Part shown: piece by piece, positions 33,161 to 47,137 of the stretch
Layout: every line of letters starts with the position of its first letter
Position numbering within the stretch: position 1 is the stretch's first letter
Source of the DNA: an uncultured Alphaproteobacteria bacterium
GTDB lineage: Bacteria > Pseudomonadota > Alphaproteobacteria > RF32 > CAG-239
Direction of reading: 5' to 3'
Assembly: GCA_944392835.1 (NCBI GenBank)
Contig: CALXYB010000008.1
Coordinates: 4,821-68,820 of the forward strand
DNA length: 64,000 nucleotides
Made by a program: the position numbers and the translations under genes
Notes under the pieces: model-generated
The model's input: the letters and a program-made list of their open reading frames with translations, nothing else
Database searches by the model: none
Told to the model about the DNA's origin: nothing

Positions 33161-33196
33161 GGCAGCCGTTTCATTGACTGCCATTTTAATTGGTTA
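33161..33196 (+). repeat. terminator hairpin + degenerate island-boundary core (attttaattggtta)
   Basis: ggcagccgtttcattgactgcc hairpin, then a core related to the TTGGTGAT repeats further right. Coincides with the GC-content drop. Confidence 0.35.
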
Positions 33197-33478
33197 TTTT
33201 CTTTTTAAAAGATGAAGTAATATTATAATCAACACTGGTGAAAGTAATAATAATGCATAGAACTCAAGCTCAGAAAGCTCCACTAGATAATTAAGTCCAA
33301 AAACAATTAAAATTGGAGAAAGTCCAAAGACAATCCTTAAAAAATGCCAATCTTCGGTCACTGTATCATGATCACAATCTGTCCAACGATATATCTTAGG
33401 ATAAATATAACATCCATAAATGAAAAGCATTAATCCCAAAACAACCAATAAACTTCCGATTATCTTTACTGTTTCCAT
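33194..33478 (-). CDS. small membrane protein, hypothetical
   Basis: Three TM helices. Confidence 0.35.
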   Translation of the reverse strand: METVKIIGSLLVVLGLMLFIYGCYIYPKIYRWTDCDHDTVTEDWHFLRIVFGLSPILIVFGLNYLVELSELEFYALLLLSPVLIIILLHLLKRK

Positions 33479-33690
33479 AATAATATTATTAAATAGTTAA
33501 ACATTATGATTAAATTTTGTTAAATTATAATATGTTAAAAAAATAAGTAAAGATTTTAATATAAAAAATTTGGACGAAATAAAAAAACAACATCAAACTA
33601 AAAAACTGTTTGTATTAGTGATGCGGTTAGCCTAAGATTGCGGAAATATTTCCTAATCACAAGTTATTTATAATCATTAAAATGCGAGAT

Positions 33691-34011
33691 TTATATATTA
33701 TAAAAGTTGGTAAAATAGACATATCTCGCCAAATAAACAAGAGCCGGTATGGATAGAATGATATAGGCTTTTTTGAGATTTGTTTTACGCTTTTTCCAAG
33801 CATAAACCGTAGGTGCAATTATTATCAACAATATTGTTAATGTCATTATGGTATAGTTAAACCTATTTTCATATGCCCAACCTAATGCCTCTGCATTCCA
33901 TGGCATTTGGTTGCTACTCATTTCTTTTGGATATGTTATGGCATATATAAAAACTAAAAATCCATTTAAGGACAATAAGAGATAAAACAGTATGAGTTTG
34001 ATTTTTTTCAT
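33691..34011 (-). CDS. small membrane protein, tandem paralog 1
   Basis: About 90% nucleotide identity to 34146..34466 over about 320 bp. Confidence 0.4.
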   Translation of the reverse strand: MKKIKLILFYLLLSLNGFLVFIYAITYPKEMSSNQMPWNAEALGWAYENRFNYTIMTLTILLIIIAPTVYAWKKRKTNLKKAYIILSIPALVYLARYVYFTNFYNI

Positions 34012-34145
34012 AATTGCACCTTCGATTAAATTTATTCAAAGTATATTCAGCATTTACCTTAAATACAATAAAAATCACCAACAATCTTTATCATATTTTA
34101 CATTAAGAATCATATCATGCCCATATTTCTTAAATTTAAATGAGG

Positions 34146-34466
34146 CTATATATTAAAAAAGTTGATAAAATAAATATATTGTATCAGATATAAAAGAGCC
34201 GGGATGGATAGAATTATATAGGCTTTTTTGAGATTTGTTTTACGCTTTTTCCAAGCATAAATCGTAGGTGCAATTATTATCAACAATATTGTTAATGTCA
34301 TTATGGTATAGTTAAACCTATTTTCATATGCCCAACCTAATGCCTCTGCATTCCATGGCATGCTGTCACTTGTCATATCATCTGGATATGTTACTGCAAT
34401 GATAAAAACCGCAAAGGCATATAATCCTGACAATAGATAAAACGGTATGAGTTTGATTTTTTTCAT
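34146..34466 (-). CDS. small membrane protein, tandem paralog 2
   Basis: Start trimmed to MKKIKLIPFYLL. Near-identical C-terminal two-thirds to paralog 1. Confidence 0.4.
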   Translation of the reverse strand: MKKIKLIPFYLLSGLYAFAVFIIAVTYPDDMTSDSMPWNAEALGWAYENRFNYTIMTLTILLIIIAPTIYAWKKRKTNLKKAYIILSIPALLYLIQYIYFINFFNI

Positions 34467-34480
34467 AATTGCACCTTCGG

Positions 34481-34876
34481 TTAAAGCGGAATACATTTTT
34501 GAACTTTATTCCAACTCAAGCAATCATTTCTGCATATGTGTTGGTCATAGTCCCATACCAAGCCATTATCAAGACAAGAATCCAATTGATGTGCTCGCTT
34601 GATATTCGCATTAAATAAAAACATTTGAAGAAAAGCTAAAAAAATGAGCATTACAAAAATATAATGTTTTTGTTTATATCTATTAAACACCCAAAAAATT
34701 AGTCCCCAACACAATGTTGTGATGATTGCCACGTAAGGAATATGCGCCATTGATGCTTCTTCATTTTCCGTAATATAAGCTTCATAAATCAGAAACAAAA
34801 CTATTGGCGTAATCAAAATTCCTTTAACAATTATATGCATTGCTTTAAGAAATAACTCTTTGGTTTGTTTTTTCAT
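34481..34876 (-). CDS. membrane protein, hypothetical
   Basis: TM helices plus C-terminal Cys-containing tail. Overlaps start of paralog 2 (coupled). Confidence 0.4.
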   Translation of the reverse strand: MKKQTKELFLKAMHIIVKGILITPIVLFLIYEAYITENEEASMAHIPYVAIITTLCWGLIFWVFNRYKQKHYIFVMLIFLAFLQMFLFNANIKRAHQLDSCLDNGLVWDYDQHICRNDCLSWNKVQKCIPL

Positions 34877-34925: not shown

Positions 34926-35438
34926 TTATTTGTAGTAATCGCGTGGATTACGAGAGCAACTTTCTAAAAGATTTTTTCCCGATTTTGCTCCCTGCCAACC
35001 TCTACGATTTGCTTCCCAATCATCTGATGATGCTTGAATTCCATCTTTCATTACTCCATACGGAAATTCTCGTGCTGTACTTAAAGTTTTTGCAACAAAT
35101 TCTCCCCATTTTCCCCTTTTAGCGGCTTCATAATTTGCTTTACAATGAAAAAATTTATCATTTCCTATAGTGGCATCTTCTTCCATCTCTTTTTTATTTT
35201 GCACAAAGTCATAAAATGGAGCTAATAACCCCGTTCTTGTTTTTCCTGGATAATTAGATTTATTTTTCTGCATATATTCATTGAGATGAGCCTCTGTCTT
35301 TTTTCCCCAATTTTCAGAAATATTTGATTTTTTTGTTCTATATGTTTCTAAATAATCCTTTTTACTATTTTCAATATTATCAATAGAAAATTTTTTAGAA
35401 GGATCTTCTTGTATAATATATCTTATTAAATTACTCAT
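34926..35438 (-). CDS. serum amyloid A (SAA) domain protein with N-terminal MSNLIRYIIQEDP tag
   Basis: IGNDKFFHCKANYEAAKRGKWGEFVAKTLSTARE and DDWEANRRGWQGAKSG align closely with the vertebrate SAA core ([34 protein letters not shown] ... ADQAANEWGRSG). Start trimmed to ATG 35438 with AAGGA RBS. Confidence 0.65.
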   Translation of the reverse strand: MSNLIRYIIQEDPSKKFSIDNIENSKKDYLETYRTKKSNISENWGKKTEAHLNEYMQKNKSNYPGKTRTGLLAPFYDFVQNKKEMEEDATIGNDKFFHCKANYEAAKRGKWGEFVAKTLSTAREFPYGVMKDGIQASSDDWEANRRGWQGAKSGKNLLESCSRNPRDYYK

Positions 35439-35477
35439 TTCTTTTTCCTTATTCTTTGTTAATTTTAGATACAAAAA

Positions 35478-35524
35478 AACCGTTGATTTTCATCAACGGT
35501 TTTTAGACGCACTTTTCCCAAGTG
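35478..35524 (-). promoter_or_regulatory. leader stem-loop + CACTT-N5-AAGTG palindrome upstream of the SAA-like gene
   Basis: aaccgttgattttcatcaacggtt hairpin with T-run, then cacttttcccaagtg palindrome. Same architecture as upstream of 9677..10588. Confidence 0.4.
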
Positions 35525-36014
35525 ACATTTTATCTTTTATAATATTTTCTATTTAAAGTAAAGGAAAAAATTCCTATCTTGTGGGTAATTATGTTTTATG
35601 TTATTTAAGATGTTCCAAAGAGCTTGCATTTTTGCTTAGCGCTCCCTTCCGGGTTCGAACTTCTATTGTAATTATGATACTTTTTTATAATTTTTACTCT
35701 TTCTTGCTCATAAGCTCAAGCTTTTAGCTTTCGCCAACTCGCTTCGGTCACTCCATTTGTAACGTTTTTCGCCTACACTTCCGTTTGGCTCAAAACCAAC
35801 AAATGTTCGCCTGTCGTTAAAAATTCCTCCACGGGAGAAATTTTTTTCCTCCAGCCCCATACTTTGACGATGAGCCCTTAAATTTCAAAAATAAAAAAAT
35901 TGTTGATTAAAAATAAAAGGAATAAAATAAAAAAGTTCGGACAAATTGAAAAAATGATGATTTTTGAAAAAGAAACATCCGAACTTGATGAAAGCCTTGG
36001 AAATAAAAGAAAAA

Positions 36015-36050
36015 GCAGCCATTCTCATGACTGCCGTTTGAATTGATGAT
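36015..36050 (+). repeat. terminator hairpin + degenerate boundary core (gtttgaattgatgat)
   Basis: Terminates the radical SAM gene in minus orientation. Core is related to the TTGGTGAT repeats. Confidence 0.35.
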
Positions 36051-36091
36051 ATTGTTAGTCTAAAGTTGCGAAAATATCTATTAGTTTTTTA

Positions 36092-37348
36092 TTAACGTTC
36101 TTTTATTTTATTTTTCATAAAAGTATTAGAAAATTGACAAAATCCACCACATTTTATCCCTTCTGGTGAATTATTGACATCACAATCCTTGCATGCCTCT
36201 TGTGTTTTTAATCGTGAGCGCAATGTATAGTCTAGCTCTTGTAGCAATGCTTCAGGTGTATACTTTTCAATTGGCCCTTTCTTATGCTTACGATCCATAT
36301 GACAAACTAACAGACGACCATTTACATCAATGTTTATTAGTTGACGAATATCACAACCATAATACCTTGATTCTTGTATTTTATCTGCTAAATGGACGGT
36401 GTTGTGAAAAACATGCGGATTATTTTTGTGTTTTTCATAAATGCTCCTCATATCAACATTCTGCAATTCATTATTAGCAGCGGCTCCTGCAATTATTGTT
36501 GGACGGATAAATAAATTTATTTCAAATGGTTTTAAATATTCAACTAATCTATCAATACCAGGTTCATTATCTTGATTGACTGTACATAACAAAGAACAAT
36601 TTATGCCATTTTCTTTTAATATCTTAATTCCTTCTATATCTTTTGCAAAAAGTCCTGGTCTTTTTCTACTTTTGTCATGTAATTCCCCGTATGAGTCAAT
36701 ACTTATAATTATATCACTTGAACTTTTTAATGAATTAATAGTTTTTTTATCTAATGAAGACAAATACTCTCCGTTAGTTACAATTGTATATAAAAAATTT
36801 TCTTTATTAACAAAATCACAAAGTTCAGATAGATCTTTTCTAAGCAAAGGCTCACCACCTAAAATTTCGAGTCTAGTTATTCCTAATTTTTTTAAGTGCT
36901 TGATTCTTTTTTTCAAAGTATCCAGAGAAGGCGGAGGTGTTGGAATTTCTGCTTTATAACAAATATCGCAATTACACTGGCAAGCATCTGTAATTTCAAT
37001 TCTGCCATAATAAGGCAAGTCATTATTCAAACAGTGAACTTTCTTAAAAGAATTGGGATGATTAGTTTGTTCTATTAGTTCATGACTGAGTAACTTCTGA
37101 ACTATAGATTTAGGCATTCCATTCAGATTAAAAATCGGTTGTTGAAGAATTTCTACCATTTCATTATCCAGAAACAAAACACTATTTATTGTTTTTCCTG
37201 ATATAGCCAACGTTCCATTAGGAGATATTCTGAGTAAGCTATTCTTCATAATAGAGTACGTTTCTGTGCCTATATAAACAGAGGTATCTTCTTTAATAAA
37301 CTCTTTTTTACATGGAACAGCTCGACTGTATAAATTTGTTACTTGCAT
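36092..37348 (-). CDS. radical SAM enzyme with C-terminal SPASM/twitch domain (peptide- or protein-modifying maturase-like)
   Basis: CQCNCDIC (CxxxCxxC). C-terminal Cys cluster CHMD...CKDCD...CGGFC. About 130-aa N-terminal extension, possibly substrate recognition. Start trimmed to ATG 37348 with AGGGG RBS. Confidence 0.75.
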   Translation of the reverse strand: MQVTNLYSRAVPCKKEFIKEDTSVYIGTETYSIMKNSLLRISPNGTLAISGKTINSVLFLDNEMVEILQQPIFNLNGMPKSIVQKLLSHELIEQTNHPNSFKKVHCLNNDLPYYGRIEITDACQCNCDICYKAEIPTPPPSLDTLKKRIKHLKKLGITRLEILGGEPLLRKDLSELCDFVNKENFLYTIVTNGEYLSSLDKKTINSLKSSSDIIISIDSYGELHDKSRKRPGLFAKDIEGIKILKENGINCSLLCTVNQDNEPGIDRLVEYLKPFEINLFIRPTIIAGAAANNELQNVDMRSIYEKHKNNPHVFHNTVHLADKIQESRYYGCDIRQLINIDVNGRLLVCHMDRKHKKGPIEKYTPEALLQELDYTLRSRLKTQEACKDCDVNNSPEGIKCGGFCQFSNTFMKNKIKER

Positions 37349-37413
37349 TTCATGGCCCCTAAGCGAGTTATTTTTACATAAAAACAATTAACAGTAATAT
37401 TTTTATCAAAAAA

Positions 37414-37444
37414 TGTCAATATTTTGTCAAAAAAAATATTGACA
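37414..37444. promoter_or_regulatory. perfect 12-bp inverted repeat (TGTCAATATTTT-N7-AAAATATTGACA) in divergent promoter region
   Basis: Read directly from the sequence between the rSAM gene and the kinase-HIT-AlaRS-like operon. Candidate operator. Confidence 0.45.
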
Positions 37445-37591
37445 CAGCAAATTATTAACGATATATTAACACAAAAAAAATGCAGTAAATTAAATAATTA
37501 ATTACACAAAATTGTAAATTTTATATAACTTCTAGCAAAATTAATCTTATTTCTTATTAATTTTTTCTAAATTAATATTGTAAAGGTAAAA

Positions 37592-38197
37592 ATGAAGAAC
37601 ACAATAATCTATTTAATTGGAGGCCCCGGAGTTGGCAAACAAACTATTGCTAAAGAAATTCAAAAAAAGCAATCTTTTACTTTAGTGGATAATCATTCGT
37701 ATACAAATGCCATTTTTTCGATATCAAAAAATTATTCTCATCCTAAACACGAAGAATACAGACTAAAAGTACGCAATATTGTTCTTGAAGCTATGGGCGA
37801 AATTTGTCCCAAAGGCGAATCTTTTATATTTACAAATGTAATATCTTTGGGCGAAGAAACTTCATATTATAAGCCAGTTGAAAATCTTGCTAATACACGA
37901 CGCTCCTTATTTATTCCTGTAATGTTATTATGCGAAATGAAAGAGAATCAAAAAAGAATAGCTAATCCTTTTCGCAAAAAATTTTTGAAAACAATAAATC
38001 CCGAAGCAGTCCAACAAATTGCGAACTTAGGACTGCCGGAGATAGAACACCCTAATCTTTTACGTTTAGATGTTACTAAGCTATCTGCAGCAGAAGCTGC
38101 TCTACAAATTATAACGCATGTTAACCATATTAGAAAAAAACAAAATGGTTATTATTCTAAATTCTCAACAAAAGCCAATGGAGGGGCAAATTTATGA
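37592..38197 (+). CDS. P-loop NTPase / small-molecule (nucleotide) kinase-like protein
   Basis: Walker A GGPGVGKQT at N-terminus. About 200-aa size, typical of AAA_33/CPT-like kinases. Stop overlaps next start (ATGA). Confidence 0.55.
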   Translation: MKNTIIYLIGGPGVGKQTIAKEIQKKQSFTLVDNHSYTNAIFSISKNYSHPKHEEYRLKVRNIVLEAMGEICPKGESFIFTNVISLGEETSYYKPVENLANTRRSLFIPVMLLCEMKENQKRIANPFRKKFLKTINPEAVQQIANLGLPEIEHPNLLRLDVTKLSAAEAALQIITHVNHIRKKQNGYYSKFSTKANGGANL

Positions 38198-39006
38198 TAA
38201 AAAATTGCGTTTTGTGCGATGGTTTAAAAGACGAGTTTCAAAATATTAAGGAACAATACCCTGAACTACAGAGCAATGTAACTTTGTTTGAAACTAAAAA
38301 CTTTAAAGTTATTCCAGATAAATTTCCGATTGCACCTAATCACATTATTATTCTGCCGAAAGAACATATTAATACATTTGCTGAATTTAATGAAGCCCAA
38401 GGGCGAGAAGTTGGTTATATATTAGATCGTTTAGAGAACACAACAAAATCTGATAATTTTATTATGTTTGAACACGGAACAAGTAAATCTGAAGAGTTAA
38501 ATACTCCACCACATATTAAGTCAATATTTCATGCACATTTACACTTTATTCCAAATGTTAAATGCAATACAGAGGATATGGATGTTTTTTTTCAACAGAA
38601 AAACGTTCAATTACTTGATTATGATGGTTCTCAAAGAAATATATCTGAGTTTCAAACACAATATTCTGGAAATGCAAATTTAGTCAATTTTATTAAAGAC
38701 AATGTTATATATGAAGATTCTGCTCGTACTTCAGTTGAATCCTATTTTTATATAAAAAGCTCAGATAATACACAATTATTCTTTCCAGAAAGACTTGTAA
38801 CGCCAAGAATTCCATCTCAATTTTTACGAGAGGCTTTAAGTGTGCAATGTGAAACACCTGAATGGAACTGGAAAGTCGGCATGACTGCTGAGGGGCGTCA
38901 AAAATATGGAACGAGAATTGTACAAATGGCCAAATTATTTAAGCAAAATGATTATAATAATATTTTAGTTATGACCAAATTTAAATCTGGTTATGGTAAA
39001 GAATAG
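38194..39006 (+). CDS. HIT (histidine triad) superfamily nucleotide hydrolase/transferase-like protein
   Basis: N-terminal CVLCDG. Histidine triad HAHLHFIP (HxHxHxx). Translationally coupled to the upstream kinase. Confidence 0.55.
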   Translation: MIKNCVLCDGLKDEFQNIKEQYPELQSNVTLFETKNFKVIPDKFPIAPNHIIILPKEHINTFAEFNEAQGREVGYILDRLENTTKSDNFIMFEHGTSKSEELNTPPHIKSIFHAHLHFIPNVKCNTEDMDVFFQQKNVQLLDYDGSQRNISEFQTQYSGNANLVNFIKDNVIYEDSARTSVESYFYIKSSDNTQLFFPERLVTPRIPSQFLREALSVQCETPEWNWKVGMTAEGRQKYGTRIVQMAKLFKQNDYNNILVMTKFKSGYGKE

Positions 39007-39015
39007 GATAAAAAA

Positions 39016-40119
39016 ATGAAAATAAAAGATATGCCAAGATTTAATAGAAAAGAAAGTCATTTTCATATGCAAAATATGATTGATGGTTTTCTTAATTACT
39101 TTCAGGAACATTCTTGTATAAAACATGAACCGGTTAAAATCTCATCAGGGATTGATCCATCTGTTCGCTTTATTGGCTCTCACATCAGTGTTTTAAAGCC
39201 TTATTTTTTAAATGACAACATTCCTACAGGAGGATATGTTATGTCACAGCCATGTATTCGTACACGAAATTTAAAAAATTATGAAAATGATGATTTTTAT
39301 CCCAATTGGGGATCATATTTCCCAAGTCTTGGAATACTGACTAAACCTGAAAGATTGGAGGATATTACAAAACAAACTTATAGCTTTATTCAAGAGCAGT
39401 GGAATATTGATCCTCACGATATAAGAATTCGTATTAGTGCTAATGATACAGATTTGATGGATCTAGCTCATAGTATATTCAAGTCCGAAATGTTTGAAAT
39501 AGACACCATGCAACCAAAATATTATCGCCACAAACTTGGTATAGATGGTGTTTGGGGGCGTAATTTCAATCTTGCTTTACGTGATTATGGAAAAGATACT
39601 TTTTCAGACATTGGAAATGTTATTATTTTGGAAAATCAGGATAAACAGCTTGGAATAGAAATTGCATTAGGAAGCTCTACTGTATTAAAACAAATTTATG
39701 GATTAAGTCATGTCATGGATTGTCACCCTGTATTAGGATTGGATAAGTATATTCAAAATCCTAATATCCGTGTAAAGATGGAAGATACAATTGTTACAAG
39801 TATGGCCTTATATAATGATGGACTAGAACCATCTAATAAGGATAACACTAACCGCTTGATGAAAAAATATCTTGAGATAATGAAAGCTTGCGTTGACAAG
39901 ACAAATCTCCCCAAAGAGGTTCTTAGAAAAACACTATACCAGTATGAATTATTGGAATATGGTTCAAATAATGGAATATATACTCAAAAAATTATGGATT
40001 TTATTTGTTCATCTTCTCAAGCTCAGAAATCAAAAGCTTTAGAAAATAAACAACAATTGGAAGCTTCTCCCTCAAATTCCATAATTTTTACATTATCGCA
40101 AAATAAATTATCTAGATGA
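39016..40119 (+). CDS. alanyl-tRNA synthetase catalytic-domain paralog (truncated, stand-alone class II aaRS-like)
   Basis: FLNYFQEH..DPSVRFIGSHISVLKPYFL..SQPCIRT..NDDFYPNWGSYF aligns with the AlaRS N-terminus FLDFFHSKGH..DPTLLFTNAGMNQFKDVFL..SQRCVRAGGKHNDLENVG..FFEMLGNFSF. 367 aa, versus about 875 aa for AlaRS. Confidence 0.55.
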   Translation: MKIKDMPRFNRKESHFHMQNMIDGFLNYFQEHSCIKHEPVKISSGIDPSVRFIGSHISVLKPYFLNDNIPTGGYVMSQPCIRTRNLKNYENDDFYPNWGSYFPSLGILTKPERLEDITKQTYSFIQEQWNIDPHDIRIRISANDTDLMDLAHSIFKSEMFEIDTMQPKYYRHKLGIDGVWGRNFNLALRDYGKDTFSDIGNVIILENQDKQLGIEIALGSSTVLKQIYGLSHVMDCHPVLGLDKYIQNPNIRVKMEDTIVTSMALYNDGLEPSNKDNTNRLMKKYLEIMKACVDKTNLPKEVLRKTLYQYELLEYGSNNGIYTQKIMDFICSSSQAQKSKALENKQQLEASPSNSIIFTLSQNKLSR

Positions 40120-40269
40120 CATTCCTCCGTAAAATTTTGGGAGCTATGAATATGCTTAAAGGATAGGATTGTGTTGAGTAGCACCTAAGCATTTTACCGA
40201 GAATAACCTCTGAACTTACATCAAGACAACTACTTAAAGAAAAGCGGGAAGTAACATTCCCGCCTTTCT

Positions 40270-41268
40270 TTAATGCTCCAATATTTCAATAATAGGTAAT
40301 TTATCTCCCTGCATTTTCAGTGAAATCTGTCCTCCGATGGGATAGGTAATAATTGGAGTTGTATGACCGATATCAAAATTAGCAATTACTGGTAAATCAT
40401 TTAATGCTTCTTTAGTATGAATAATCTGTTCAAGCAAATTTCTATCAATTTTAGATTCTGGTCTAAAACGACCAATAATCAGTGCCTTAACATATTTAAA
40501 GTCGGCTTGTTGAATTAAAGACTGCAACAAACGGTCAAATAAGACGGCATTCGTTTCTTCATCTTCTTCTAAAAATAGAATAGAGTTTTTCAAAGATGGC
40601 CAGAATTCAGTGCCTTGTAAAGAACTTAAGCAACGGACATGGCCCCCAATCAATTTCCCCTCGAATATATTTCCTTTTCCTTTATTTATAATCCAAAACC
40701 CATTATTGGGTGTAAAATTACGTTTTTCCTGATCCATAAACCATTCATCATTGCTATATTCTTTAGCCGGTGTAACTTGATAGGGTGTATTCTCAATTAG
40801 ACATTTTTTAAAATAATCCAAGGTATAATCAAAACCGTGAAGCATTCCAAAACTTGAAAAATGCGGTCCAGAGTAAGTTACAACATCTGTCTTTGTTGTT
40901 ATTGCATGACAAAGACATGTAATATCAGAAAAGCCACATAAAATCTTAGGATTATTTTTTATAAGTTTATAATCAATTCTATCAATCAATTGATTTGTAT
41001 TAAAACCACCAATAGCTGTTAAAATACCATCAACATTTTTATCCGCAAAAGCCTCATGTAAATCTTCAAGCCTTGAAGCAATTGATGAAGAGACAAAATC
41101 ATCAATCTCATCGCAATGTTTAGAATAGCTTACTGATATCCCCATATCTGCAAAACGTTTCTTTGCGATTTCACGCGTTTCTTCAGAAATGATTTTAAAA
41201 CTTCTTGATGGGGCAATTATACGAATATGCGCCCCTGGTTTTAATTTTTTTGGACAAATCATCAGCAT
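40270..41268 (-). CDS. LD-carboxypeptidase (peptidase S66, MccF-like)
   Basis: Ser nucleophile motif GFSDITCL. His in IGHT. 332 aa. Confidence 0.75.
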   Translation of the reverse strand: MLMICPKKLKPGAHIRIIAPSRSFKIISEETREIAKKRFADMGISVSYSKHCDEIDDFVSSSIASRLEDLHEAFADKNVDGILTAIGGFNTNQLIDRIDYKLIKNNPKILCGFSDITCLCHAITTKTDVVTYSGPHFSSFGMLHGFDYTLDYFKKCLIENTPYQVTPAKEYSNDEWFMDQEKRNFTPNNGFWIINKGKGNIFEGKLIGGHVRCLSSLQGTEFWPSLKNSILFLEEDEETNAVLFDRLLQSLIQQADFKYVKALIIGRFRPESKIDRNLLEQIIHTKEALNDLPVIANFDIGHTTPIITYPIGGQISLKMQGDKLPIIEILEH

Positions 41269-41402
41269 CTCCTAATTTTAATAAACTTTTATTTAACCAT
41301 CAATATCATAAAGCAACTTAAAGATGATATTAAAATTCGTCTTGCAATAAAATCTAAGCCTATTTTTTTATGTAAGTCAATTAAAATATAAAATCTACAA
41401 TA

Positions 41403-42074
41403 TCATCCATATATCTCATCAAGCTTTTGTTCTAGATTTCCGGATTGAACGGCTGGTAACGTGTCAAATTGTCTCAGATTATGCTTTTCTATCTTAATTT
41501 CGTCACTGAAGCCTAAGATATAGGCGATAGCTATGCGATATATAATTTCTGTCGGAGCCAAACCGTAAACCTGATTGGCAAAAATATGTTGTAACCGTTC
41601 TTTATCATTCGGAAAGGCTTGTTTCATCTTCTCGTTTCTGTATAATCTTTTAACAATTTCGGTAATATAAAGACCAGATTTCATATATAAGTCGATAAAG
41701 GTTTTATTAGGATCATCAAAGCATTCAGGATTTTCCGCCAATAAGCTATCTACCATTTCCACAACCACTTTCTTGGGGGTGTATATTTGGTTGGTCTTTT
41801 GGGGTGGAATATAATCGAAAATGTCTTCTTTGCTTGCTTCATCAAAGTAATTTCCTAATTTTCGTTTCAGATTAAGAAACTCTTTAACCTCTGACAAATC
41901 GACATTTCCGGAAACTTCTCCTCCTAAAACTACAGTATTATCTTTAAGCAAAACCTCCACCGAATAGCGGATATTCTTATCTTGAGCCAGCAGGCGATCC
42001 AAAATGTATGATGAAATATAATCTGCTGTTTTATCAGGATGCCCGAGAGAAACAAACTCTGCCGTCTTTTTCAT
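41403..42074 (-). CDS. protein with S-adenosylmethionine synthetase (MetK) N-terminal-domain homology, otherwise divergent
   Basis: SLGHPDKTADYISSYILDRLL...VVLGGEVSG aligns with MetK [21 protein letters not shown]...MVLVGGEIT. Start trimmed to ATG 42074 with AAGGA RBS. The listed upstream extension covers leader hairpins. Confidence 0.5.
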   Translation of the reverse strand: MKKTAEFVSLGHPDKTADYISSYILDRLLAQDKNIRYSVEVLLKDNTVVLGGEVSGNVDLSEVKEFLNLKRKLGNYFDEASKEDIFDYIPPQKTNQIYTPKKVVVEMVDSLLAENPECFDDPNKTFIDLYMKSGLYITEIVKRLYRNEKMKQAFPNDKERLQHIFANQVYGLAPTEIIYRIAIAYILGFSDEIKIEKHNLRQFDTLPAVQSGNLEQKLDEIYG

Positions 42075-42323
42075 AGTTTTTCCTTCATAAAAAAAGCCCG
42101 CAGAATTTAATCTGCAGGCACAAACAAAAAAGGGAACAAGCCTTAAACACAACTCGTTCCCGATTATAGCTATTTTTATAAACTATTTTTCAGTTTTTGT
42201 CTTGTCTGTTTTTGTCGCAACCATAAACATTCATACGTATGTAATCGATAAAAATATCATTGCATACGTACAGAATTTAATTTACTATACGTTTTAGTTT
42301 ATAAAAAATATAAAGGTAAAAAA

Positions 42324-43331
42324 ATGTACGACGGATCAATTTCAAACTATAATAAAATAGAAGAGGATGCCTCCTACCATGAAATTATATCTTTTGAAGA
42401 TGAAAAGGACATTCGCAAACGATATTTAGACGAGCTTGCAAAAAATAAAGATAATTCACAGAAAATATCCGTTCTAAATGTAGCATTGATTAACTATTTT
42501 ATTAAAAAAGATAGATTTGATTTAGCTAAAGATGTGTTAAAAAAACAAACCTCCTTTTGCACAGAAGAACTTATAACATTGTTCGCATCTAAAATTGATG
42601 TAGAAATTCTGAGCAAAACAGACGTAGATTTTATCAATGAAGTTTTAAAATATTTATCGCACATTAAAACGAATAATAACGGACATCATGTAATTCACGA
42701 TTTAAAAGAAAAGATCAAAAAAATTAAAGAGAAAATCAAACAAGAATCAAAGAAAAAAAATGATAAGTATAAAAACAAAGAAACAAAATTATCTACCTCA
42801 TCTCAAAAAAAAGAAAATTTAACAGTAAGTCAGAATAAAGCCGAATCTCCTGAAGAGGCAATATCTTTCTTATCAAAATATATCAGCGAACAGAAACAAA
42901 ATATAAAAACCTTGAATGAAGAAAAACAGCTCATATTATCCCAAGTTAATACTTCTCAGAGAAAATTAGATGATTTAACAAAACAGTTACATACGGTAAT
43001 TCAAGAGAAAAAAGCAAAATCTTTTGAATTAGAAGATATTGAACAAAAATATAATAAGTTGAAAAAAGAAAATGATACTTACAAAATAAAAACACAAAGA
43101 AATGAAGAAGAGTTAGGCAAGAAAATTGAAAGCCTATCAAATAGTATCGATATTCTTAAAGAGAGTCATAAAATTGAAATACAATCTCTAAAAATCAATA
43201 TAAGAAATAAATTGAAAATAAGATATGATGATTTTTTAGATAAAAAAGATGAATTATCAAATAATCAATTGAAAATTTTAATTGCCAATATTTTTGCAGA
43301 CTTAGAATATCTTGGCATTAAATTCAAATAG
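42324..43331 (+). CDS. coiled-coil protein, hypothetical
   Basis: K/E-rich heptad-like C-terminal half. Stop overlaps next gene. Confidence 0.45.
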   Translation: MYDGSISNYNKIEEDASYHEIISFEDEKDIRKRYLDELAKNKDNSQKISVLNVALINYFIKKDRFDLAKDVLKKQTSFCTEELITLFASKIDVEILSKTDVDFINEVLKYLSHIKTNNNGHHVIHDLKEKIKKIKEKIKQESKKKNDKYKNKETKLSTSSQKKENLTVSQNKAESPEEAISFLSKYISEQKQNIKTLNEEKQLILSQVNTSQRKLDDLTKQLHTVIQEKKAKSFELEDIEQKYNKLKKENDTYKIKTQRNEEELGKKIESLSNSIDILKESHKIEIQSLKINIRNKLKIRYDDFLDKKDELSNNQLKILIANIFADLEYLGIKFK

Positions 43332-44748
43332 GAGATTAATTATGGGCTTCTGTGGTATTGATTTTGGAACAACAAATACAGCTATGGTCTATTTTTCAGA
43401 ACACACAGGAATGATATTTGTAGGGGATGAAGAAGAAAATTTACCTTTACCATCTATAGTTGCGTTAAACAAACATACTGGCGAAATCATTGTTGGAAGT
43501 GATGTAAAAAGAAATATACAGAAATATACTAGAGATTATGAAATAGTTTTATCAATTAAGACTGTTTTGGATGATCCTAAACAGGAATGGAATGTTGCTG
43601 GTCGAACATTAAAGCCTGTAGATATAGCCGCAGAAATTTTTAAAACTCTTAAAAACAATGCAACTAAAAGAAAAATAGATATATCAAAAATTGTAATTTC
43701 GGTCCCTATTAATTTTTCATCTGGAAAAAAAATATGCCTTCGAGAAGCTGCCAAAAAAGCCGGATTGGACATCAAAAAATTTGTAAATGAACCTACCGCA
43801 GCATTTTTAGCTCATTATGAGGAGTTAAAATCATTTTCTAAAACAGTTATTTTTGATTGGGGAGGCGGAACTTTAGATATATCTGCATTAGATATTAAAA
43901 ATGGTACTATTAGAGAAATATACACAGATAACATGTATAAAGCGGGAGATAATATAGATAAAGACCTGGCCCGTAGTATTTATGAAAAATCCATAAAAAA
44001 ATATGGTTTGTCGCTTATTCCTTTTGATAAAATAGAAGCCGACGAATATGATGAATTAATCGCAAAAGCAGAATTAGCAAAAATTTACTTATCAAAAGAT
44101 AACCAGAATCGATATGATGATTTTTGCAAAATACAAGGTAAAATACGAGATATTACCGTAACATACGAAGATTTATGTAATATTTCTGAAAATATAGTCA
44201 ATGAAGCTATAAGCAAATTAAATCATGTAATAAGTAAAGCATATAATGAACGAGTGCATTGCATTTTATGTGTAGGAGGCTCCTCAAATCTAAGAAACCT
44301 TAAAGAAAAATTGAGAAAAATTTATGGTGATATCCTGTATTTTCCTGATTTTCCACAATGGGATATAGCAAATGGTGCTTGTATTATAGATGCCTCAAAT
44401 AGAAATAATGTCTATAAACTGGCTTACGATATTAATCTAATTTTATCAAATGGAGATAAATATCCTCTTTTAAAAGAAGGTCAACTCATTCCTTGCAAAG
44501 AATCAAAAATACATTTATCGACTGTTGATTGCTCAGAAAATGCAAATTTTGTATTTCAATTTGGTCAAGATGAATATCATGAAATAACAATTCCTCTTCT
44601 AGGTGGAGTTGATGAGACTTTTGATTTATTCACATATATTGATAACTATTCTGTCTTGCATATAGATATGAAGAATAACAAAATTCAAGAAGATGAAAGA
44701 TACAATATATTTCGATATGAAAAACTAGATTTATGTTACAACGTGTAA
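43312..44748 (+). CDS. Hsp70 (DnaK)-family actin-fold ATPase, stand-alone
   Basis: GIDFGTTNTAMV phosphate-1. DWGGGTLDIS phosphate-2. NEPTAAF connect motif. 478 aa with no DnaK substrate-binding-domain signature. Confidence 0.7.
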   Translation: MALNSNRRLIMGFCGIDFGTTNTAMVYFSEHTGMIFVGDEEENLPLPSIVALNKHTGEIIVGSDVKRNIQKYTRDYEIVLSIKTVLDDPKQEWNVAGRTLKPVDIAAEIFKTLKNNATKRKIDISKIVISVPINFSSGKKICLREAAKKAGLDIKKFVNEPTAAFLAHYEELKSFSKTVIFDWGGGTLDISALDIKNGTIREIYTDNMYKAGDNIDKDLARSIYEKSIKKYGLSLIPFDKIEADEYDELIAKAELAKIYLSKDNQNRYDDFCKIQGKIRDITVTYEDLCNISENIVNEAISKLNHVISKAYNERVHCILCVGGSSNLRNLKEKLRKIYGDILYFPDFPQWDIANGACIIDASNRNNVYKLAYDINLILSNGDKYPLLKEGQLIPCKESKIHLSTVDCSENANFVFQFGQDEYHEITIPLLGGVDETFDLFTYIDNYSVLHIDMKNNKIQEDERYNIFRYEKLDLCYNV

Positions 44749-44757
44749 GGATAAAAA

Positions 44758-47073: not shown

Positions 47074-47097
47074 AAGAGGAAGTATAAACTTCCTCTT
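47074..47097 (-). terminator. terminator of catP
   Basis: gaggaagtataaacttcctc hairpin with T-run in minus orientation, immediately after the catP stop. Confidence 0.6.
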
Positions 47098-47101
47098 TTC
47101 A

Positions 47102-47135: not shown

Positions 47136-47137
47136 TT

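What the first reader, a model, noticed from the sequence alone, without database searches (positions are those of the whole stretch)
37592..39006. Translationally coupled P-loop kinase + HIT-domain gene pair (ATGA overlap)
Start and stop overlap by 4 nt, which implies obligate co-expression. HIT enzymes act on nucleoside-phosphoramidates and adenylates. The kinase could phosphorylate a nucleoside-like intermediate, or act as a resistance kinase. Together with the downstream AlaRS-like gene this forms a three-gene operon.
Basis: partly seen in the sequence, partly recalled or inferred. Interest (0 to 1): 0.55.

Follow-up and report, generated by a model that had tools for sequence, protein, structure and literature searches.

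The report
Kinase–HIT pair in AlaRS-like cassette
The overlapping kinase and HIT genes are real and functionally linked, but they are the accessory nucleotide-handling part of a mobile five-gene cassette built around an uncharacterised truncated alanyl-tRNA-synthetase look-alike and a microcin-C-immunity-type peptidase, which most likely makes and detoxifies an aminoacyl-nucleotide antimetabolite.

Summary
A 201-aa P-loop kinase (37592-38197) and a 270-aa HIT protein (38194-39006) overlap by ATGA, and a 367-aa AlaRS-like gene (39016-40119) follows. The overlap alone is commonplace. The stronger evidence for coupling is that three relatives carry kinase-HIT fusions, and that all genes are under strong purifying selection (dN/dS 0.02-0.09).

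The three genes belong to a 5.85-kb block (36037-41889). It also holds a divergent radical-SAM gene and a convergent S66 peptidase, and it occurs at 99.35% identity in a different genomic context flanked by serine recombinase genes.

Across 65 non-redundant metagenomic loci, the stable core is the AlaRS-like protein plus S66, usually with an AsnA-like ligase, a methyltransferase, and an HD or HAD phosphatase. HIT with or without the kinase is a rare variant, found in gut Alphaproteobacteria and one archaeal-type contig.

The AlaRS-like family has at least 300 clusters at 50% identity. It has the AlaRS catalytic-fragment fold but lacks the motif-3 arginine and carries Glu in place of Asp235. 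The Asp-to-Glu change and the truncated architecture also define AcmF, the Ala-tRNA-dependent transferase that makes ascamycin.

Best reading (about 0.4): the cassette makes and self-protects against an aminoacyl-nucleotide aaRS-inhibitor mimic. No chemistry has been demonstrated.

The parts
36037..41889 (.). Mobile block shared at 99.35% identity with a contig that has different flanks (L002 7846-13696)
   Evidence: blastn of the window against L002. In L002/L006 the block sits between a large serine recombinase plus an AAA_15 gene on one side and a resolvase plus DUF2924 on the other. GC is 0.28-0.34 within a low-GC island spanning about 33-45 kb.
36092..37348 (-). Radical-SAM enzyme (418 aa from the ATG used by gene callers) with a CxxxCxxC motif and a Cys-rich C-terminus of SPASM/twitch type. 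Transcribed divergently from the kinase.
   Evidence: Pfam Radical_SAM 7.7e-15. NCBIfam matches SPASM maturases and NirJ/AhbC, all far below cut-offs; viperin scores 53.8 against a cut-off of 180. Best PDB matches are SkfB 1.8e-10, BlsE 7e-8 and MoaA. dN/dS 0.043 against L008. Absent in L010, L013 and L015. Related radical-SAM genes lie next to AlaRS-like genes in 7 of 36 two-flank loci.
37414..37444 (.). Perfect 10-bp inverted repeat, TGTCAATATT (37414-37423) and AATATTGACA (37435-37444), overlapping the -35 hexamer. Candidate operator.
   Evidence: Read directly from the sequence. Overlaps the promoter-like site. Not tested further.
37439..37467 (+). Sigma-70-like promoter, TTGACA-17-TATATT (11 of 12 positions)
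   Evidence: Best-scoring site in 35400-41400. The total number of such sites is no higher than in shuffled sequence, so this is suggestive only.
37592..38197 (+). P-loop small-molecule-type kinase, 201 aa
   Evidence: Walker A G10/G15/K16, D33, R122, R128 and K133 are invariant across 32 homologues. The family profile matches shikimate, adenylate, deoxynucleoside and APS kinases in the PDB. In the fusion model, the kinase half resembles the 2rhm putative kinase and CMP, APS, gluconate and shikimate kinases, with TM about 0.64-0.66 normalised to the target. dN/dS 0.047.
38194..38197 (+). ATGA start/stop overlap, preceded by a GGAGG Shine-Dalgarno sequence at 38180-38184
   Evidence: Sequence.
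38194..39006 (+). Two-domain HIT protein, 270 aa. The N-terminal HIT domain carries H113-A-H115-L-H117-F-I. The C-terminal half-domain carries the conserved motifs IPSQFxR and WNWK.
   Evidence: Pfam HIT and DcpS_C score above cut-offs. The family alignment shows invariant K56, F92-E93-H94-G95, A114-H115, P120, S208-Q209-F210, R212 and W226. The family profile matches CWF19L1 across both domains (E 7e-8). CwfJ_C_1 matches 24 of 29 members. Foldseek aligns 280-296 columns to CWF19L1/L2 and Cwf19. dN/dS 0.023.
39016..40119 (+). Truncated AlaRS paralogue, 367 aa: aminoacylation domain plus the first helical tRNA-recognition subdomain. No editing or C-Ala domains.
   Evidence: AF2 pLDDT 91. Foldseek top hits are all AlaRS catalytic fragments (E about 1e-14, TM 0.67-0.73, 13-14% identity). 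The family profile hits only AlaRS in the PDB. hhalign equates R82 with R69, N201 with N212, E215 with D235 and T222 with the motif-3 Arg. Across 260 family representatives, position 215 is Glu in 251 and Arg is not among the five commonest residues at position 222.
40244..40263 (+). Terminator-like GC-rich hairpin between the convergent AlaRS-like and S66 genes
   Evidence: 7-bp stem, 5 GC pairs, T-rich tail.
40270..41268 (-). S66 serine peptidase (MccF/LdcA family), 332 aa
   Evidence: Pfam Peptidase_S66 and S66C. Best PDB matches are the uncharacterised 'MccF-like' BA_5613 and Lmo1638 (E 1e-102 and 1e-97), then B. anthracis MccF (8e-39), E. coli MccF (6e-30) and LdcA (2e-17). The Ser (GFSDIT), Glu (LEED) and His (GHTTP) positions, and the loop Trp, align with B. 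anthracis MccF. An S66 gene is within four genes of the AlaRS-like gene in 33 of 36 metagenomic loci with both flanks.
41403..42152 (-). Chimeric ORF at the edge of the block. A MetK N-terminal fragment is fused to a C-terminal part that, in L002, belongs to a resolvase gene.
   Evidence: Pfam S-AdoMet_synt_N matches residues 29-87. Identity with L002 ends at 41889, inside this ORF. The L002 counterpart carries the Resolvase domain.

Best explanation
The kinase-HIT pair is the nucleotide-handling module of a mobile five-gene cassette (radical-SAM gene | kinase-HIT-AlaRS-like | S66). The cassette is a rare lineage variant of a widespread, uncharacterised operon family.

Proposed mechanism:
1. 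The P-loop kinase phosphorylates a hydroxyl of a nucleoside-type precursor.
2. The HIT enzyme, through its covalent His-NMP intermediate, converts or trims that nucleotide to give an acceptor. A nucleoside 5'-phosphoramidate or a related amine-bearing nucleotide is one candidate.
3. In some lineages a radical-SAM enzyme or a SAM methyltransferase tailors the compound.
4. The truncated AlaRS paralogue has lost the class-II motif-3 arginine and carries Glu in place of Asp235, but keeps the adenylate pocket and the acceptor-stem-binding helices. It transfers an aminoacyl group onto the acceptor held in the former adenylate pocket. The donor is most likely an aminoacyl-tRNA, as shown for AcmF in ascamycin biosynthesis. 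The product would be a non-hydrolysable aminoacyl-adenylate mimic, that is, an aaRS inhibitor.
5. The S66 peptidase cleaves the aminoacyl-N bond, as MccF does, for self-protection or recycling.

Shown here: the folds, the conserved catalytic residues, the gene fusions, the synteny, the mobility and the purifying selection. Inferred: every substrate, the direction in which HIT acts (building the acceptor versus detoxifying the product), the tRNA dependence, and the toxicity of the product.
For: 1. Kinase and HIT are fused in three relatives, and the fusion model is confident.
2. In every distinct context examined, members of the HIT subfamily (50% identity or more) sit next to an AlaRS-like gene, often overlapping it (L001-L010, L011, L013, L015, L023, L032/L033, L100).
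3. The AlaRS-like protein has the AlaRS catalytic-fragment fold. It keeps the motif-2 Arg (252 of 260) and the residues equivalent to F90 and N212. The motif-3 Arg position is Thr in 189 of 260, with Arg not among the five commonest residues. The Asp235 position is Glu in 251 of 260. The PSN...R..L+..Y helices that contact the tRNA acceptor stem are conserved. AcmF is described with the same truncation, loss of ATP and alanine-activation residues, and an essential Glu232 arising from D232E. AcmF uses Ala-tRNA(Ala) to N-alanylate 5'-O-sulfamoyladenosine (PMC12945691).
4. All three enzyme classes that detoxify processed microcin C recur with the AlaRS-like family (PMC7157772). S66/MccF-type genes are present in 33 of 36 loci. 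HIT is adjacent in the alphaproteobacterial clade and in the archaeal-type contig. GNAT occurs as a fusion (P0252) or as a neighbour (L024, L075).
5. The remaining slots are filled by interchangeable nucleotide enzymes: HD (16 of 36, plus the fusion P0325), HAD (10 neighbours), NUDIX (L011, L032), dCTP-deaminase-like (L075, L097) and kinase-HIT. There are also tailoring enzymes (a methyltransferase in 26 of 36, plus the fusion P0264; radical-SAM; SDR) and an AsnA-like adenylate-forming ligase (32 of 36).
6. The window S66 is closer to MccF than to LdcA and keeps the loop Trp that aligns with the adenine-stacking Trp of B. anthracis MccF (the residue's role is from memory of Nocek 2012 and Agarwal 2012).
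7. The cassette moves as a unit and all five genes evolve at the same rate under purifying selection.
Against: - No product, substrate or activity is known for any of these proteins.
- No exporter or precursor-supply genes lie inside the 5.85-kb block.
- The AlaRS-like family keeps Asn at the N212 position, whereas AcmF has Gln there.
- The nearly invariant K225, three residues after the missing motif-3 Arg, could rescue ATP binding. Adenylation activity is therefore not excluded.
- The best S66 relatives (BA_5613, Lmo1638) are uncharacterised and come from organisms not known to have this system.
- HIT, HD and HAD are mainly hydrolases, which fits a detoxifying or trimming role at least as well as a biosynthetic one.
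- In L010 the kinase and the radical-SAM gene are absent, so they cannot be essential for the core chemistry.
- The canonical operon contains an AsnA-like ligase that this cassette lacks, and its role is not explained.
Confidence: 0.4

Rival explanations
1. Resistance-only island. The cassette detoxifies exogenous aminoacyl-nucleotide antibiotics of the microcin C, albomycin or ascamycin type, which are plausible in gut communities. HIT would cleave the P-N bond as MccH does, S66 would cleave the aminoacyl-N bond as MccF does, and the kinase would inactivate by phosphorylation as CPT-type resistance kinases do. The AlaRS-like protein would bind or sequester the inhibitor, or re-route it.
For: HIT and S66 are two of the three known enzyme classes that inactivate processed McC (PMC7157772). 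The host is a gut alphaproteobacterial MAG. The cassette is mobile, like many resistance determinants. A CAT gene and a GNAT gene lie nearby in the window. No exporter or obvious precursor-supply gene is in the block.
Against: The most conserved component is the AlaRS-like protein, which has no role in any known resistance mechanism. The family-wide partners (methyltransferase, AsnA-like ligase, radical-SAM, SDR, dCTP-deaminase-like) look like biosynthesis and tailoring. The HIT protein belongs to a different clade from MccH/HinT: two domains, CwfJ-like. Pfam CPT matches only 1 of 32 kinase homologues.
Confidence: 0.2
2. Remodelling or recycling of a nucleotide-linked cell-wall precursor. The AlaRS-like enzyme would add Ala from Ala-tRNA, as in Fem/MurM-type chemistry, to a UDP-MurNAc-peptide or a free stem peptide. 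S66 would act as an LD-carboxypeptidase. The kinase and HIT would act like a GalK/GalT or AmgK/MurU pair (sugar kinase plus sugar-1-phosphate nucleotidyltransferase). The AsnA-like enzyme would amidate a stem-peptide carboxylate.
For: S66 is the LdcA family, and NCBIfam's best hit is muramoyltetrapeptide carboxypeptidase (1.8e-28, below cut-off). tRNA-dependent Ala addition to peptidoglycan precursors is established biochemistry (general knowledge). A kinase paired with a HIT transferase is the Leloir logic, and some HIT family members weakly match GalT C-terminal and DUF4931 models. The family's FEHG motif resembles GalT's FENxG (recalled from memory).
Against: The S66 is much closer to MccF than to LdcA (1e-39 versus 2e-17). 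The HIT motif is HxHxH, not GalT's HxHxQ. HD, HAD, NUDIX and dCTP-deaminase-like neighbours and methyltransferases do not fit peptidoglycan metabolism. The system also occurs on an archaeal-type contig (L011: large primase subunit, Hef-like helicase, archease/RtcB). No mur or fem genes are adjacent in any locus examined.
Confidence: 0.1
3. tRNA or RNA-end processing, or dinucleoside-polyphosphate signalling. The AlaRS-like protein would bind the tRNA acceptor stem, or make ApnA. The kinase (of the PNK or PSTK type) and the CwfJ/aprataxin-like HIT would act on RNA termini or on adenylated or aminoacylated ends. HIT, NUDIX and HD would degrade the nucleotide by-products.
For: The two-domain HIT architecture is closest to CWF19L1/L2 (Drn1), which acts on branched RNA together with Dbr1 (PMC4105757). 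Kinase fold hits include O-phosphoseryl-tRNA kinase, and a weak PHROG hit is polynucleotide kinase. The AlaRS-like protein keeps its tRNA-recognition helices. Three NUDIX genes follow the pair in L011.
Against: It does not explain the near-universal S66 peptidase, the methyltransferase or the AsnA-like partners. PSTK similarity is weak (TM about 0.46). There are no RNA ligase, RtcB or Dbr1 partners in the operons. Loss of the motif-3 Arg argues against ATP-dependent ApnA synthesis.
Confidence: 0.08
4. Anti-phage defence. The same chemistry as in the best explanation, but used as an abortive-infection or nucleotide-antimetabolite system. The radical-SAM enzyme and kinase would resemble prokaryotic viperin-kinase pairs, the AlaRS-like enzyme would complete a toxic aminoacyl-nucleotide, and S66 would serve as the antidote.
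For: The cassette sits in variable, defence-island-like settings: next to an AAA_15 ATPase and type I R-M genes in L002/L006; next to OLD-like TOPRIM/AAA_15 genes in L017; and near OLD-like and HsdR genes in the P0080 contig. The radical-SAM gene gives generic hits to PADLOC pVip models (6e-18). dCTP-deaminase-like plus radical-SAM variants exist (L075, L097).
Against: No PADLOC model matches the kinase, HIT, AlaRS-like or S66 proteins. The radical-SAM protein fails the viperin cut-off (53.8 versus 180) and has a SPASM-type C-terminus. Most family members sit in ordinary chromosomal contexts of Patescibacteria, next to housekeeping genes. No infection sensor is evident.
Confidence: 0.1

Closest known systems
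AcmF, with AcmD and AcmE, of the ascamycin cluster (Streptomyces sp. 80H647; Zheng et al. 2024 ACS Catal, reviewed in PMC12945691)
   Same: AcmF is a truncated AlaRS-like protein with only the aminoacylation and tRNA-recognition domains. Its ATP and alanine-activation residues are degraded, and the Asp that binds the alanine amino group is replaced by an essential Glu. The nucleoside acceptor sits in the former adenylate pocket. The product is an aminoacyl-adenylate mimic, and the cluster also encodes a hydrolase (AcmE) that removes the aminoacyl group.
   Different: Sequence relatedness to AcmF could not be tested. This family keeps Asn where AcmF has Gln (N219Q). The hydrolase here is an S66 peptidase, not an alpha/beta-hydrolase. 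There are no sulfamate-building genes and no second, resistant AlaRS (AcmD) in the cassette. The partners here are kinase-HIT and a radical-SAM enzyme, or HD/HAD, a methyltransferase and an AsnA-like ligase elsewhere. The hosts are gut Alphaproteobacteria, Patescibacteria and an archaeal-type lineage, not actinomycetes.
Microcin C immunity enzymes MccF (S66), MccH (HIT) and MccE-CTD (GNAT)
   Same: The same three enzyme classes recur around the AlaRS-like gene. The S66 keeps the catalytic Ser, His and Glu and the loop Trp, and is closer to MccF than to LdcA. The HIT catalytic triad is intact.
   Different: There is no MccB (ThiF-like adenylyltransferase), no MccA heptapeptide gene and no MccC pump. 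The HIT is a two-domain CwfJ-like protein, not a HinT-like dimer of about 140 aa. The closest S66 structures (BA_5613, Lmo1638) have no assigned substrate.
CWF19L1/CWF19L2/Drn1 (CwfJ_C_1 plus CwfJ_C_2), eukaryotic spliceosome and debranching cofactors
   Same: The whole HIT plus C-terminal half-domain architecture matches, by profile (E 7e-8 over about 200 residues) and by Foldseek (280-296 aligned columns).
   Different: These are bacterial and archaeal proteins with an intact HxHxHxx triad. They stand alone or are fused to a P-loop kinase rather than to a Dbr1-like or spliceosomal N-terminus. Their genomic partners are aaRS-like enzymes and peptidases, not RNA enzymes.
P-loop hydroxyl kinases of the shikimate, gluconate, APS, CMP-kinase and CPT/PNK group
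   Same: Same fold. Walker A lysine, an Asp at the end of strand 2 (D33), and LID arginines are all present.
   Different: No family model reaches its cut-off. The closest structure is an uncharacterised putative kinase (2rhm). More distant sequence homologues (35-46% identity) occur in unrelated contexts, next to an aminotransferase or next to NUDIX and phosphodiesterase genes.
Puromycin-type aminoacyl-nucleoside clusters (recalled from memory: NUDIX Pur7, phosphatase Pur3, methyltransferases, aminoacyl ligase Pur6, GNAT Pac, hydrolase NapH)
   Same: The same inventory of enzyme types: nucleotide pyrophosphatase or phosphatase, methyltransferase, aminoacyl-adding enzyme, N-acetyltransferase, and deacylating hydrolase.
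   Different: No homology between the individual enzymes was tested. The aminoacyl-adding enzyme here is aaRS-derived. This is a resemblance in logic only.

Membership tests
HIT superfamily | His-phi-His-phi-His-phi-phi catalytic motif on the HIT alpha/beta fold | tested here: met
   The motif is HAHLHFI (H113, H115, H117). H115 is invariant and H113 and H117 are conserved in at least 90% of 29 homologues. Pfam HIT scores 28.0 (cut-off 21.5) and DcpS_C 35.1 (cut-off 24). In the AF2 fusion model the motif (291-295) runs into strand 294-298.
HinT/MccH phosphoramidase branch | Single-domain homodimeric HIT of about 110-150 aa with HinT-type substrate loop; phosphoramidase activity on aminoacyl-AMP analogues | tested here: not met
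   The protein is 270 aa with an extra conserved C-terminal half-domain. The whole protein aligns to CWF19L1 rather than to HinT alone. Activity is not testable here.
GalT/Apa2 nucleotidyltransferase branch of HIT | HxHxQ motif (GalT) and tandem half-domains forming one active site | tested here: inconclusive
   The motif is HxHxH, not HxHxQ. A pseudo-dimeric two-half architecture is present. Only weak matches to GalP_UDP_tr_C (8 of 29 members, best 7e-5) and DUF4931_N (4 of 29).
CwfJ (CWF19/Drn1) C-terminal module | CwfJ_C_1 (HIT-like) followed by CwfJ_C_2 | tested here: inconclusive
   The family profile hits CWF19L1 residues 352-533 at E 7e-8. CwfJ_C_1 matches 24 of 29 members (best E 7e-5), but CwfJ_C_2 matches only 1 of 29. 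Foldseek top hits are 8ro1_L1/L2, 8ro2_L2, 6id0_U and 3jb9_c.
P-loop small-molecule kinase (NMP, shikimate, gluconate, APS-kinase-like) | Walker A GxxGxGK[ST], catalytic or substrate Asp after strand 2, mobile LID with Arg residues | tested here: met
   G10, G15, K16, D33, R122, R128 and K133 are invariant in 32 homologues. Fold hits have target-normalised TM of 0.6-0.66. The model has helices at 116-142 in the LID position.
Chloramphenicol phosphotransferase (CPT) / zeta-toxin kinases | Match to Pfam CPT (PF07931) or a zeta-toxin family model | tested here: not met
   CPT is matched by 1 of 32 family members (2.7e-5) and not by the window protein. No zeta-toxin family appears among the matches.
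Alanyl-tRNA synthetase (functional AlaRS) | Class-II motifs 2 and 3 (both arginines), Asp235 for the alanine amino group, editing domain and C-Ala domain | tested here: not met
   The motif-2 Arg is present (R82). The motif-3 Arg is replaced (T222; Arg is not among the five commonest residues at this position in 260 representatives). Asp235 is replaced by Glu215 (251 of 260). The protein ends after the first helical subdomain at 367 aa. TIGR00344 alaS scores 22 bits against a cut-off of 457.
AcmF-type aa-tRNA-dependent AlaRS-like aminoacyltransferase | Truncation to the aminoacylation and tRNA-recognition domains | tested here: met
   The Foldseek alignment covers AlaRS catalytic fragments. 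The helices at 249-350 align to the E. coli ADH..DG..PSN..RGYVLRR region.
AcmF-type aa-tRNA-dependent AlaRS-like aminoacyltransferase | Asp-to-Glu change at the alanine-amine-binding residue (D232E in AcmF; this Glu is essential) | tested here: met
   E215 aligns with E. coli D235 and is Glu in 251 of 260 family representatives.
AcmF-type aa-tRNA-dependent AlaRS-like aminoacyltransferase | Asn-to-Gln change (N219Q in AcmF) | tested here: not met
   N201 aligns with E. coli N212 and is Asn in 251 of 260.
AcmF-type aa-tRNA-dependent AlaRS-like aminoacyltransferase | Sequence homology to AcmF, and use of Ala-tRNA as donor with a nucleoside amine as acceptor | not testable with these tools
Only the published description could be compared.
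MccF (microcin C self-immunity S66 peptidase) | Ser-His-Glu triad plus the catalytic-loop Trp that stacks on the adenine; hydrolysis of aminoacyl-nucleotide amide bonds | tested here: inconclusive
   The triad positions and the Trp (SNDEW) align with B. anthracis MccF. E is 8e-39 to B. anthracis MccF and 6e-30 to E. coli MccF, against 2e-17 to LdcA. The nearest structures (BA_5613, Lmo1638) are uncharacterised. The role of the Trp is recalled from the literature, and activity is not testable here.
Microcin C-type biosynthetic cluster | MccB ThiF-like adenylyltransferase plus a short MccA precursor gene | tested here: not met
   None of the five cassette proteins has a ThiF or MccB domain. No such gene lies within 36037-41889.
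Prokaryotic viperin (pVip) with kinase | Viperin-family radical-SAM protein reaching the NCBIfam/PADLOC family score | tested here: not met
   NF038283 scores 53.8 bits against a cut-off of 180, covering only the generic radical-SAM core. PADLOC pVip hits are of generic strength (6e-18), and there is no hit for the kinase. The Cys-rich SPASM-like C-terminus is unlike viperin.

The most novel reading that the evidence does not exclude
A large, previously unrecognised family of truncated AlaRS paralogues (at least 300 clusters at 50% identity, in Patescibacteria, an archaeal-type lineage and gut Alphaproteobacteria) defines a tRNA-dependent, MccB-independent route to aminoacyl-nucleotide 'adenylate-mimic' toxins. 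Plug-in nucleotide modules (kinase-HIT, HD, HAD, NUDIX, dCTP-deaminase-like with radical-SAM) determine the warhead's nucleotide part. MccF-like S66 peptidases, or GNATs, serve as built-in antidotes. Episymbionts and gut bacteria would use the system for competition, host manipulation or phage defence.
Probability: 0.25. Interest if true: 0.8.

Novelty: new variant of a known kind. Interest (0 to 1): 0.6.

Why it matters
Natural aminoacyl-adenylate mimics (microcin C, ascamycin, albomycin, agrocin 84) are rare, and each is made by a different route. If the best reading holds, this would be a compact, horizontally mobile and phylogenetically very broad route built on a repurposed AlaRS core.

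It would extend the single characterised example (AcmF, from an actinomycete) to hundreds of lineages, including ultra-small Patescibacteria and human- and animal-gut Alphaproteobacteria. It would give the uncharacterised 'MccF-like' S66 structures (BA_5613, Lmo1638) a candidate substrate class. It would also give a bacterial context to the CwfJ/Drn1-type two-domain HIT fold, whose chemistry is unknown in eukaryotes.

Practically, it would supply new aaRS-inhibitor scaffolds, their resistance genes, and chemoenzymatic aminoacyl-transfer catalysts. If one of the rival readings is right instead, the kinase-HIT fusion and the AlaRS-like/S66 pairing still mark an unassigned and clearly selected pathway.

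Tried and rejected
- Single-sequence PDB search with the AlaRS-like protein found nothing relevant. A family profile and a fold search were needed.
- PADLOC has no model for the kinase, HIT, AlaRS-like or S66 proteins.
- PHROGs gave only weak, generic hits. No relative of the AlaRS-like protein was found in 2.9 million viral contigs, so a phage origin was dropped.
- Viperin membership of the radical-SAM protein was rejected on score.
- A microcin-C-type RiPP cluster was rejected because there is no MccB. Small ORFs in the 35475-36092 spacer were inspected and none was called as a gene in related contigs. That spacer also lies mostly outside the mobile block.
- More distant HIT homologues (about 30% identity; P0037) and kinase homologues (37-46% identity; P0176, P0195) turned out not to be syntenic with AlaRS-like genes. 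The linkage is therefore specific to the close HIT subfamily and cannot be generalised to those wider families.
- Literature searches found no paper on BA_5613/Lmo1638 and, apart from the AcmF review, none on an AlaRS-like paralogue of this kind.
- The listing of cluster members returned no source names for representatives of the family.
- I considered that the AlaRS-like gene might be a resistant replacement AlaRS. This was rejected because it lacks the motif-3 Arg and the editing and C-Ala domains.
The 92% hhalign probability and agreement with published residue numbers (R69, N212, D235, G237) support it, but treat the residue equivalences as provisional.

Full report
**1. The observation**

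ORF A (37592-38197, +, 201 aa) has the Walker A motif GGPGVGKQT. ORF B (38194-39006, +, 270 aa) has HAHLHFIP. The ATG of B and the TGA of A share ATGA at 38194-38197, and a GGAGG Shine-Dalgarno sequence (38180-38184) lies inside the end of A. ORF C (39016-40119, +, 367 aa) starts 9 nt after B.

The best promoter-like site in the region (TTGACA-17-TATATT, 37439-37467) precedes A, and a terminator-like hairpin (40244-40263) follows C. A perfect 10-bp inverted repeat (37414-37423 / 37435-37444) overlaps the -35 hexamer.

Pfam puts B in HIT/DcpS_C above the gathering cut-offs. A matches AAA_18 and C matches the AlaRS N-terminus, both only below cut-off. The overlap itself is an ordinary operon feature, and another pair in this window (55665-55668) also overlaps by 4 nt.

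**2. Are the two genes really linked?**

Yes, but not obligately. Three independent relatives of the HIT protein (P0016, P0018, P0019; 447-460 aa; 63-71% identical to one another) are kinase-HIT fusions in the same order. AlphaFold2 folds P0019 with pLDDT 93.3 and pTM 0.87.

Against a relative with saturated synonymous sites (L008), all five cassette genes have dN 0.04-0.06 and dN/dS 0.02-0.05. However, a 90%-identical relative (L010) begins its similarity at 38167, 27 nt before the HIT start, and has no kinase and no radical-SAM gene. Two further relatives (L015, L023) and an archaeal-type contig (L011) also lack the kinase.

More distant homologues of the kinase (35-46% identity) and of the HIT protein (about 30%) sit in unrelated contexts.

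**3. What each protein is**

*Kinase.* Thirty-two homologues share invariant G10, G15, K16, D33, T81, R122, R128 and K133. That is Walker A, the Asp at the end of strand 2, and LID-type basic residues. The family profile matches shikimate, adenylate, deoxynucleoside and APS kinases. The kinase half of the fusion model matches the uncharacterised kinase 2rhm and CMP, APS, gluconate and shikimate kinases. CPT is matched by only 1 of 32 members.

*HIT.* The catalytic triad is intact. The family also conserves FEHG (92-95) and, in a C-terminal extension of about 150 residues, IPSQFxR and WNW(K/R). The family profile matches CWF19L1 across both parts (E 7e-8). CwfJ_C_1 matches 24 of 29 members. Foldseek aligns 280-296 columns to CWF19L1/L2 and Cwf19 of intron-lariat spliceosomes. 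It is therefore a two-domain, pseudo-dimeric HIT of the CwfJ/Drn1 type with a live active site, not a HinT/MccH-type protein.

*AlaRS-like protein.* A single-sequence PDB search found nothing, but the family profile hits only AlaRS (E 2e-8). The AF2 model (pLDDT 91.4) matches AlaRS catalytic fragments (E about 1e-14, TM 0.67-0.73, 13-14% identity).

Profile alignment to the E. coli AlaRS N-terminus equates R82 with R69 (motif 2), N201 with N212, E215 with D235, A217 with G237, and T222 with the motif-3 Arg.

In 260 family representatives, position 215 is Glu in 251, Arg is not among the five commonest residues at position 222, and R82 is Arg in 252. The family is large: 300 clusters at 50% identity with E < 1e-30 and 815 with E < 1e-3. 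Nearly all are 320-400 aa and unnamed.

*S66.* Best PDB matches are the uncharacterised 'MccF-like' BA_5613 and Lmo1638 (1e-102 and 1e-97), then B. anthracis MccF (8e-39), E. coli MccF (6e-30) and LdcA (2e-17). The Ser, His and Glu positions and a loop Trp align with MccF.

*Radical-SAM protein.* It is of the SPASM/twitch type. It gives generic matches to SkfB, BlsE (from the blasticidin nucleoside antibiotic pathway) and MoaA. It is not a viperin.

**4. The unit and its relatives**

The window shares 36037-41889 (5.85 kb) at 99.35% identity with L002, whose flanks are different: a large serine recombinase and an AAA_15 gene on one side, and a resolvase and DUF2924 on the other. The right edge falls inside a chimeric ORF in which a MetK N-terminal fragment is fused to the tail of the resolvase gene. 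The host is an uncultured gut alphaproteobacterium.

In Patescibacteria the AlaRS-like gene lies in a tight operon: HD (or HAD), SAM methyltransferase, AlaRS-like, S66, and an AsnA/AsnRS-like core without an anticodon-binding domain.

A metagenome scan gave 80 loci. After de-replication, 65 remained and 36 of them have at least 1.5 kb on both flanks. Genes found within four genes of the AlaRS-like gene in those 36 loci:

| Neighbour | Loci (of 36) |
|---|---|
| S66 | 33 |
| AsnA-like ligase | 32 |
| Methyltransferase | 26 |
| HD | 16 |
| Radical-SAM | 7 |
| HIT | 1 |
| Kinase | 1 |

The unclassified operon neighbours are HAD phosphatases (10), Amidohydro_2 (5), dCTP-deaminase-like (4) and SDR (3). 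S66-less variants (L075, L097) carry two dCTP-deaminase-like genes and a radical-SAM gene. In L075, an Acetyltransf_3 GNAT and an amidohydrolase were also identified.

Fusions exist between the AlaRS-like domain and HD (P0325, nine members in its cluster), a methyltransferase (P0264), GNAT (P0252) and a receiver domain (P0286).

**5. Interpretation**

The recurring partners fall into four groups:
- Nucleotide-processing enzymes: HD, HAD, NUDIX, HIT with or without a kinase, dCTP-deaminase-like, radical-SAM.
- Tailoring enzymes: methyltransferase, SDR.
- A second aaRS-derived ligase (AsnA-like).
- Exactly the three enzyme classes known to inactivate processed microcin C: the S66 peptidase MccF, the HIT protein MccH and the GNAT domain MccE-CTD (PMC7157772).

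The AlaRS-like protein has the architecture reported for AcmF and shares its Asp-to-Glu substitution. AcmF takes Ala from Ala-tRNA(Ala) and N-acylates 5'-O-sulfamoyladenosine bound in the old adenylate pocket, producing the Ala-AMP mimic ascamycin. That cluster also encodes a de-alanylating hydrolase (PMC12945691).

I therefore propose that this cassette builds an aminoacyl-nucleotide adenylate mimic. The kinase and HIT would prepare (or possibly destroy) the nucleotide moiety, the AlaRS-like enzyme would add the aminoacyl group, most likely from aa-tRNA, and S66 would remove it for self-protection. Confidence is about 0.4.

Only the folds, motifs, fusions, synteny, mobility and selection are shown. 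Substrates, the direction of the HIT reaction, tRNA dependence and toxicity are all inferred.

Points against this reading:
- Asn201 is retained where AcmF has Gln.
- K225 might substitute for the motif-3 Arg.
- There is no exporter in the block.
- The AsnA-like partner of the canonical operon is absent here, and its role is unexplained.

**6. Rivals**

- Resistance-only island (0.2).
- Peptidoglycan-precursor remodelling (0.1).
- tRNA or RNA-end processing, or ApnA metabolism (0.08).
- Anti-phage use of the same chemistry (0.1).

Each is set out with its own refuting experiments in the rival explanations section.

**7. Novelty and score**

No paper in the searchable library describes this AlaRS-like family, its pairing with S66, or a kinase-HIT fusion of this type. 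The logic has a single characterised precedent (AcmF) and a known immunity toolkit (McC). I therefore class it as a new variant of a known kind.

The kinase-HIT pair taken alone is of modest interest. The system it belongs to is of real interest to researchers working on aaRS enzymes, natural products and Patescibacteria. Interest: 0.6.

Noticed in passing
window 41403-42152 (-): Chimeric ORF. Residues 29-87 are the N-terminal domain of SAM synthetase (MetK). The C-terminal 162 aa or so are shared with a gene that carries a Resolvase domain in L002. Identity with L002 stops at 41889, inside the ORF. This looks like a recombination scar at the edge of the mobile block.
   Followed up: partly
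window 34926-35474 (-): A bacterial protein matching the serum amyloid A family (PF00277, from the precomputed annotation of the identical gene in L001/L003/L004). Unusual for a bacterium. It lies just outside the mobile block.
   Followed up: no
window 33194-34876 (-): A run of four small predicted membrane proteins. Two of them (33691-34011 and 34146-34496) are near-identical tandem paralogues. No Pfam family is recorded for them.
   Followed up: no
window 42324-45486 (+): A three-gene unit: a 335-aa coiled-coil protein, a 478-aa Hsp70/actin-fold ATPase lacking a substrate-binding domain, and a 242-aa protein with no Pfam match. It is present in L001, L003 and L004 but replaced in L005. It may be a separate mobile or defence module. 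No PADLOC hit.
   Followed up: partly
window 37414-37444: A perfect 10-bp inverted repeat (TGTCAATATT / AATATTGACA, 11-bp spacer) overlapping the -35 hexamer of the kinase-HIT-AlaRS-like promoter, with a third TTGTCA half-site between the arms. Candidate repressor operator. No regulator gene lies inside the block.
   Followed up: no
L075 6001-12558 and L097 1-9006: More distant AlaRS-like genes (31-41% identity) with no adjacent S66. Instead they are flanked by two dCTP-deaminase-like genes and lie near a radical-SAM gene. L075 additionally has an Acetyltransf_3 GNAT and an Amidohydro_2 gene. This points to a cytidine-nucleotide-based variant of the system.
   Followed up: partly
proteins P0325, P0264, P0252, P0286 (from the representative search): Natural fusions of the AlaRS-like domain with HD (549 aa; nine members in its 90%-identity cluster, seen on many contigs), a SAM methyltransferase (627 aa), an N-terminal GNAT (520 aa) and a response-regulator receiver domain (498 aa).
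   Followed up: partly
L019 9477-11969: In one Patescibacteria genome the five-gene operon is followed directly by a full-length AspRS/AsnRS-type synthetase and a second, divergent S66 peptidase. The synthetase could be a housekeeping gene or a resistant target copy.
   Followed up: no
window 58907-60436 (+) and 45513-47764 (-): A large serine recombinase gene is 82% identical at nucleotide level to the one flanking the cassette in L002. DUF6291 and DUF6362 genes (45513-46540) and a chloramphenicol acetyltransferase gene (47138-47764) lie between it and the cassette. The whole 33-60 kb stretch appears to be a mosaic of mobile DNA.
   Followed up: no
window 32491-33036 (-): An Acetyltransf_3 (RimL/MccE-CTD-type) GNAT lies 3 kb upstream of the cassette, in the flank that is not shared with L002. 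Its proximity to HIT and S66 completes the microcin C immunity trio in this genome, but it is not part of the mobile block.
   Followed up: no
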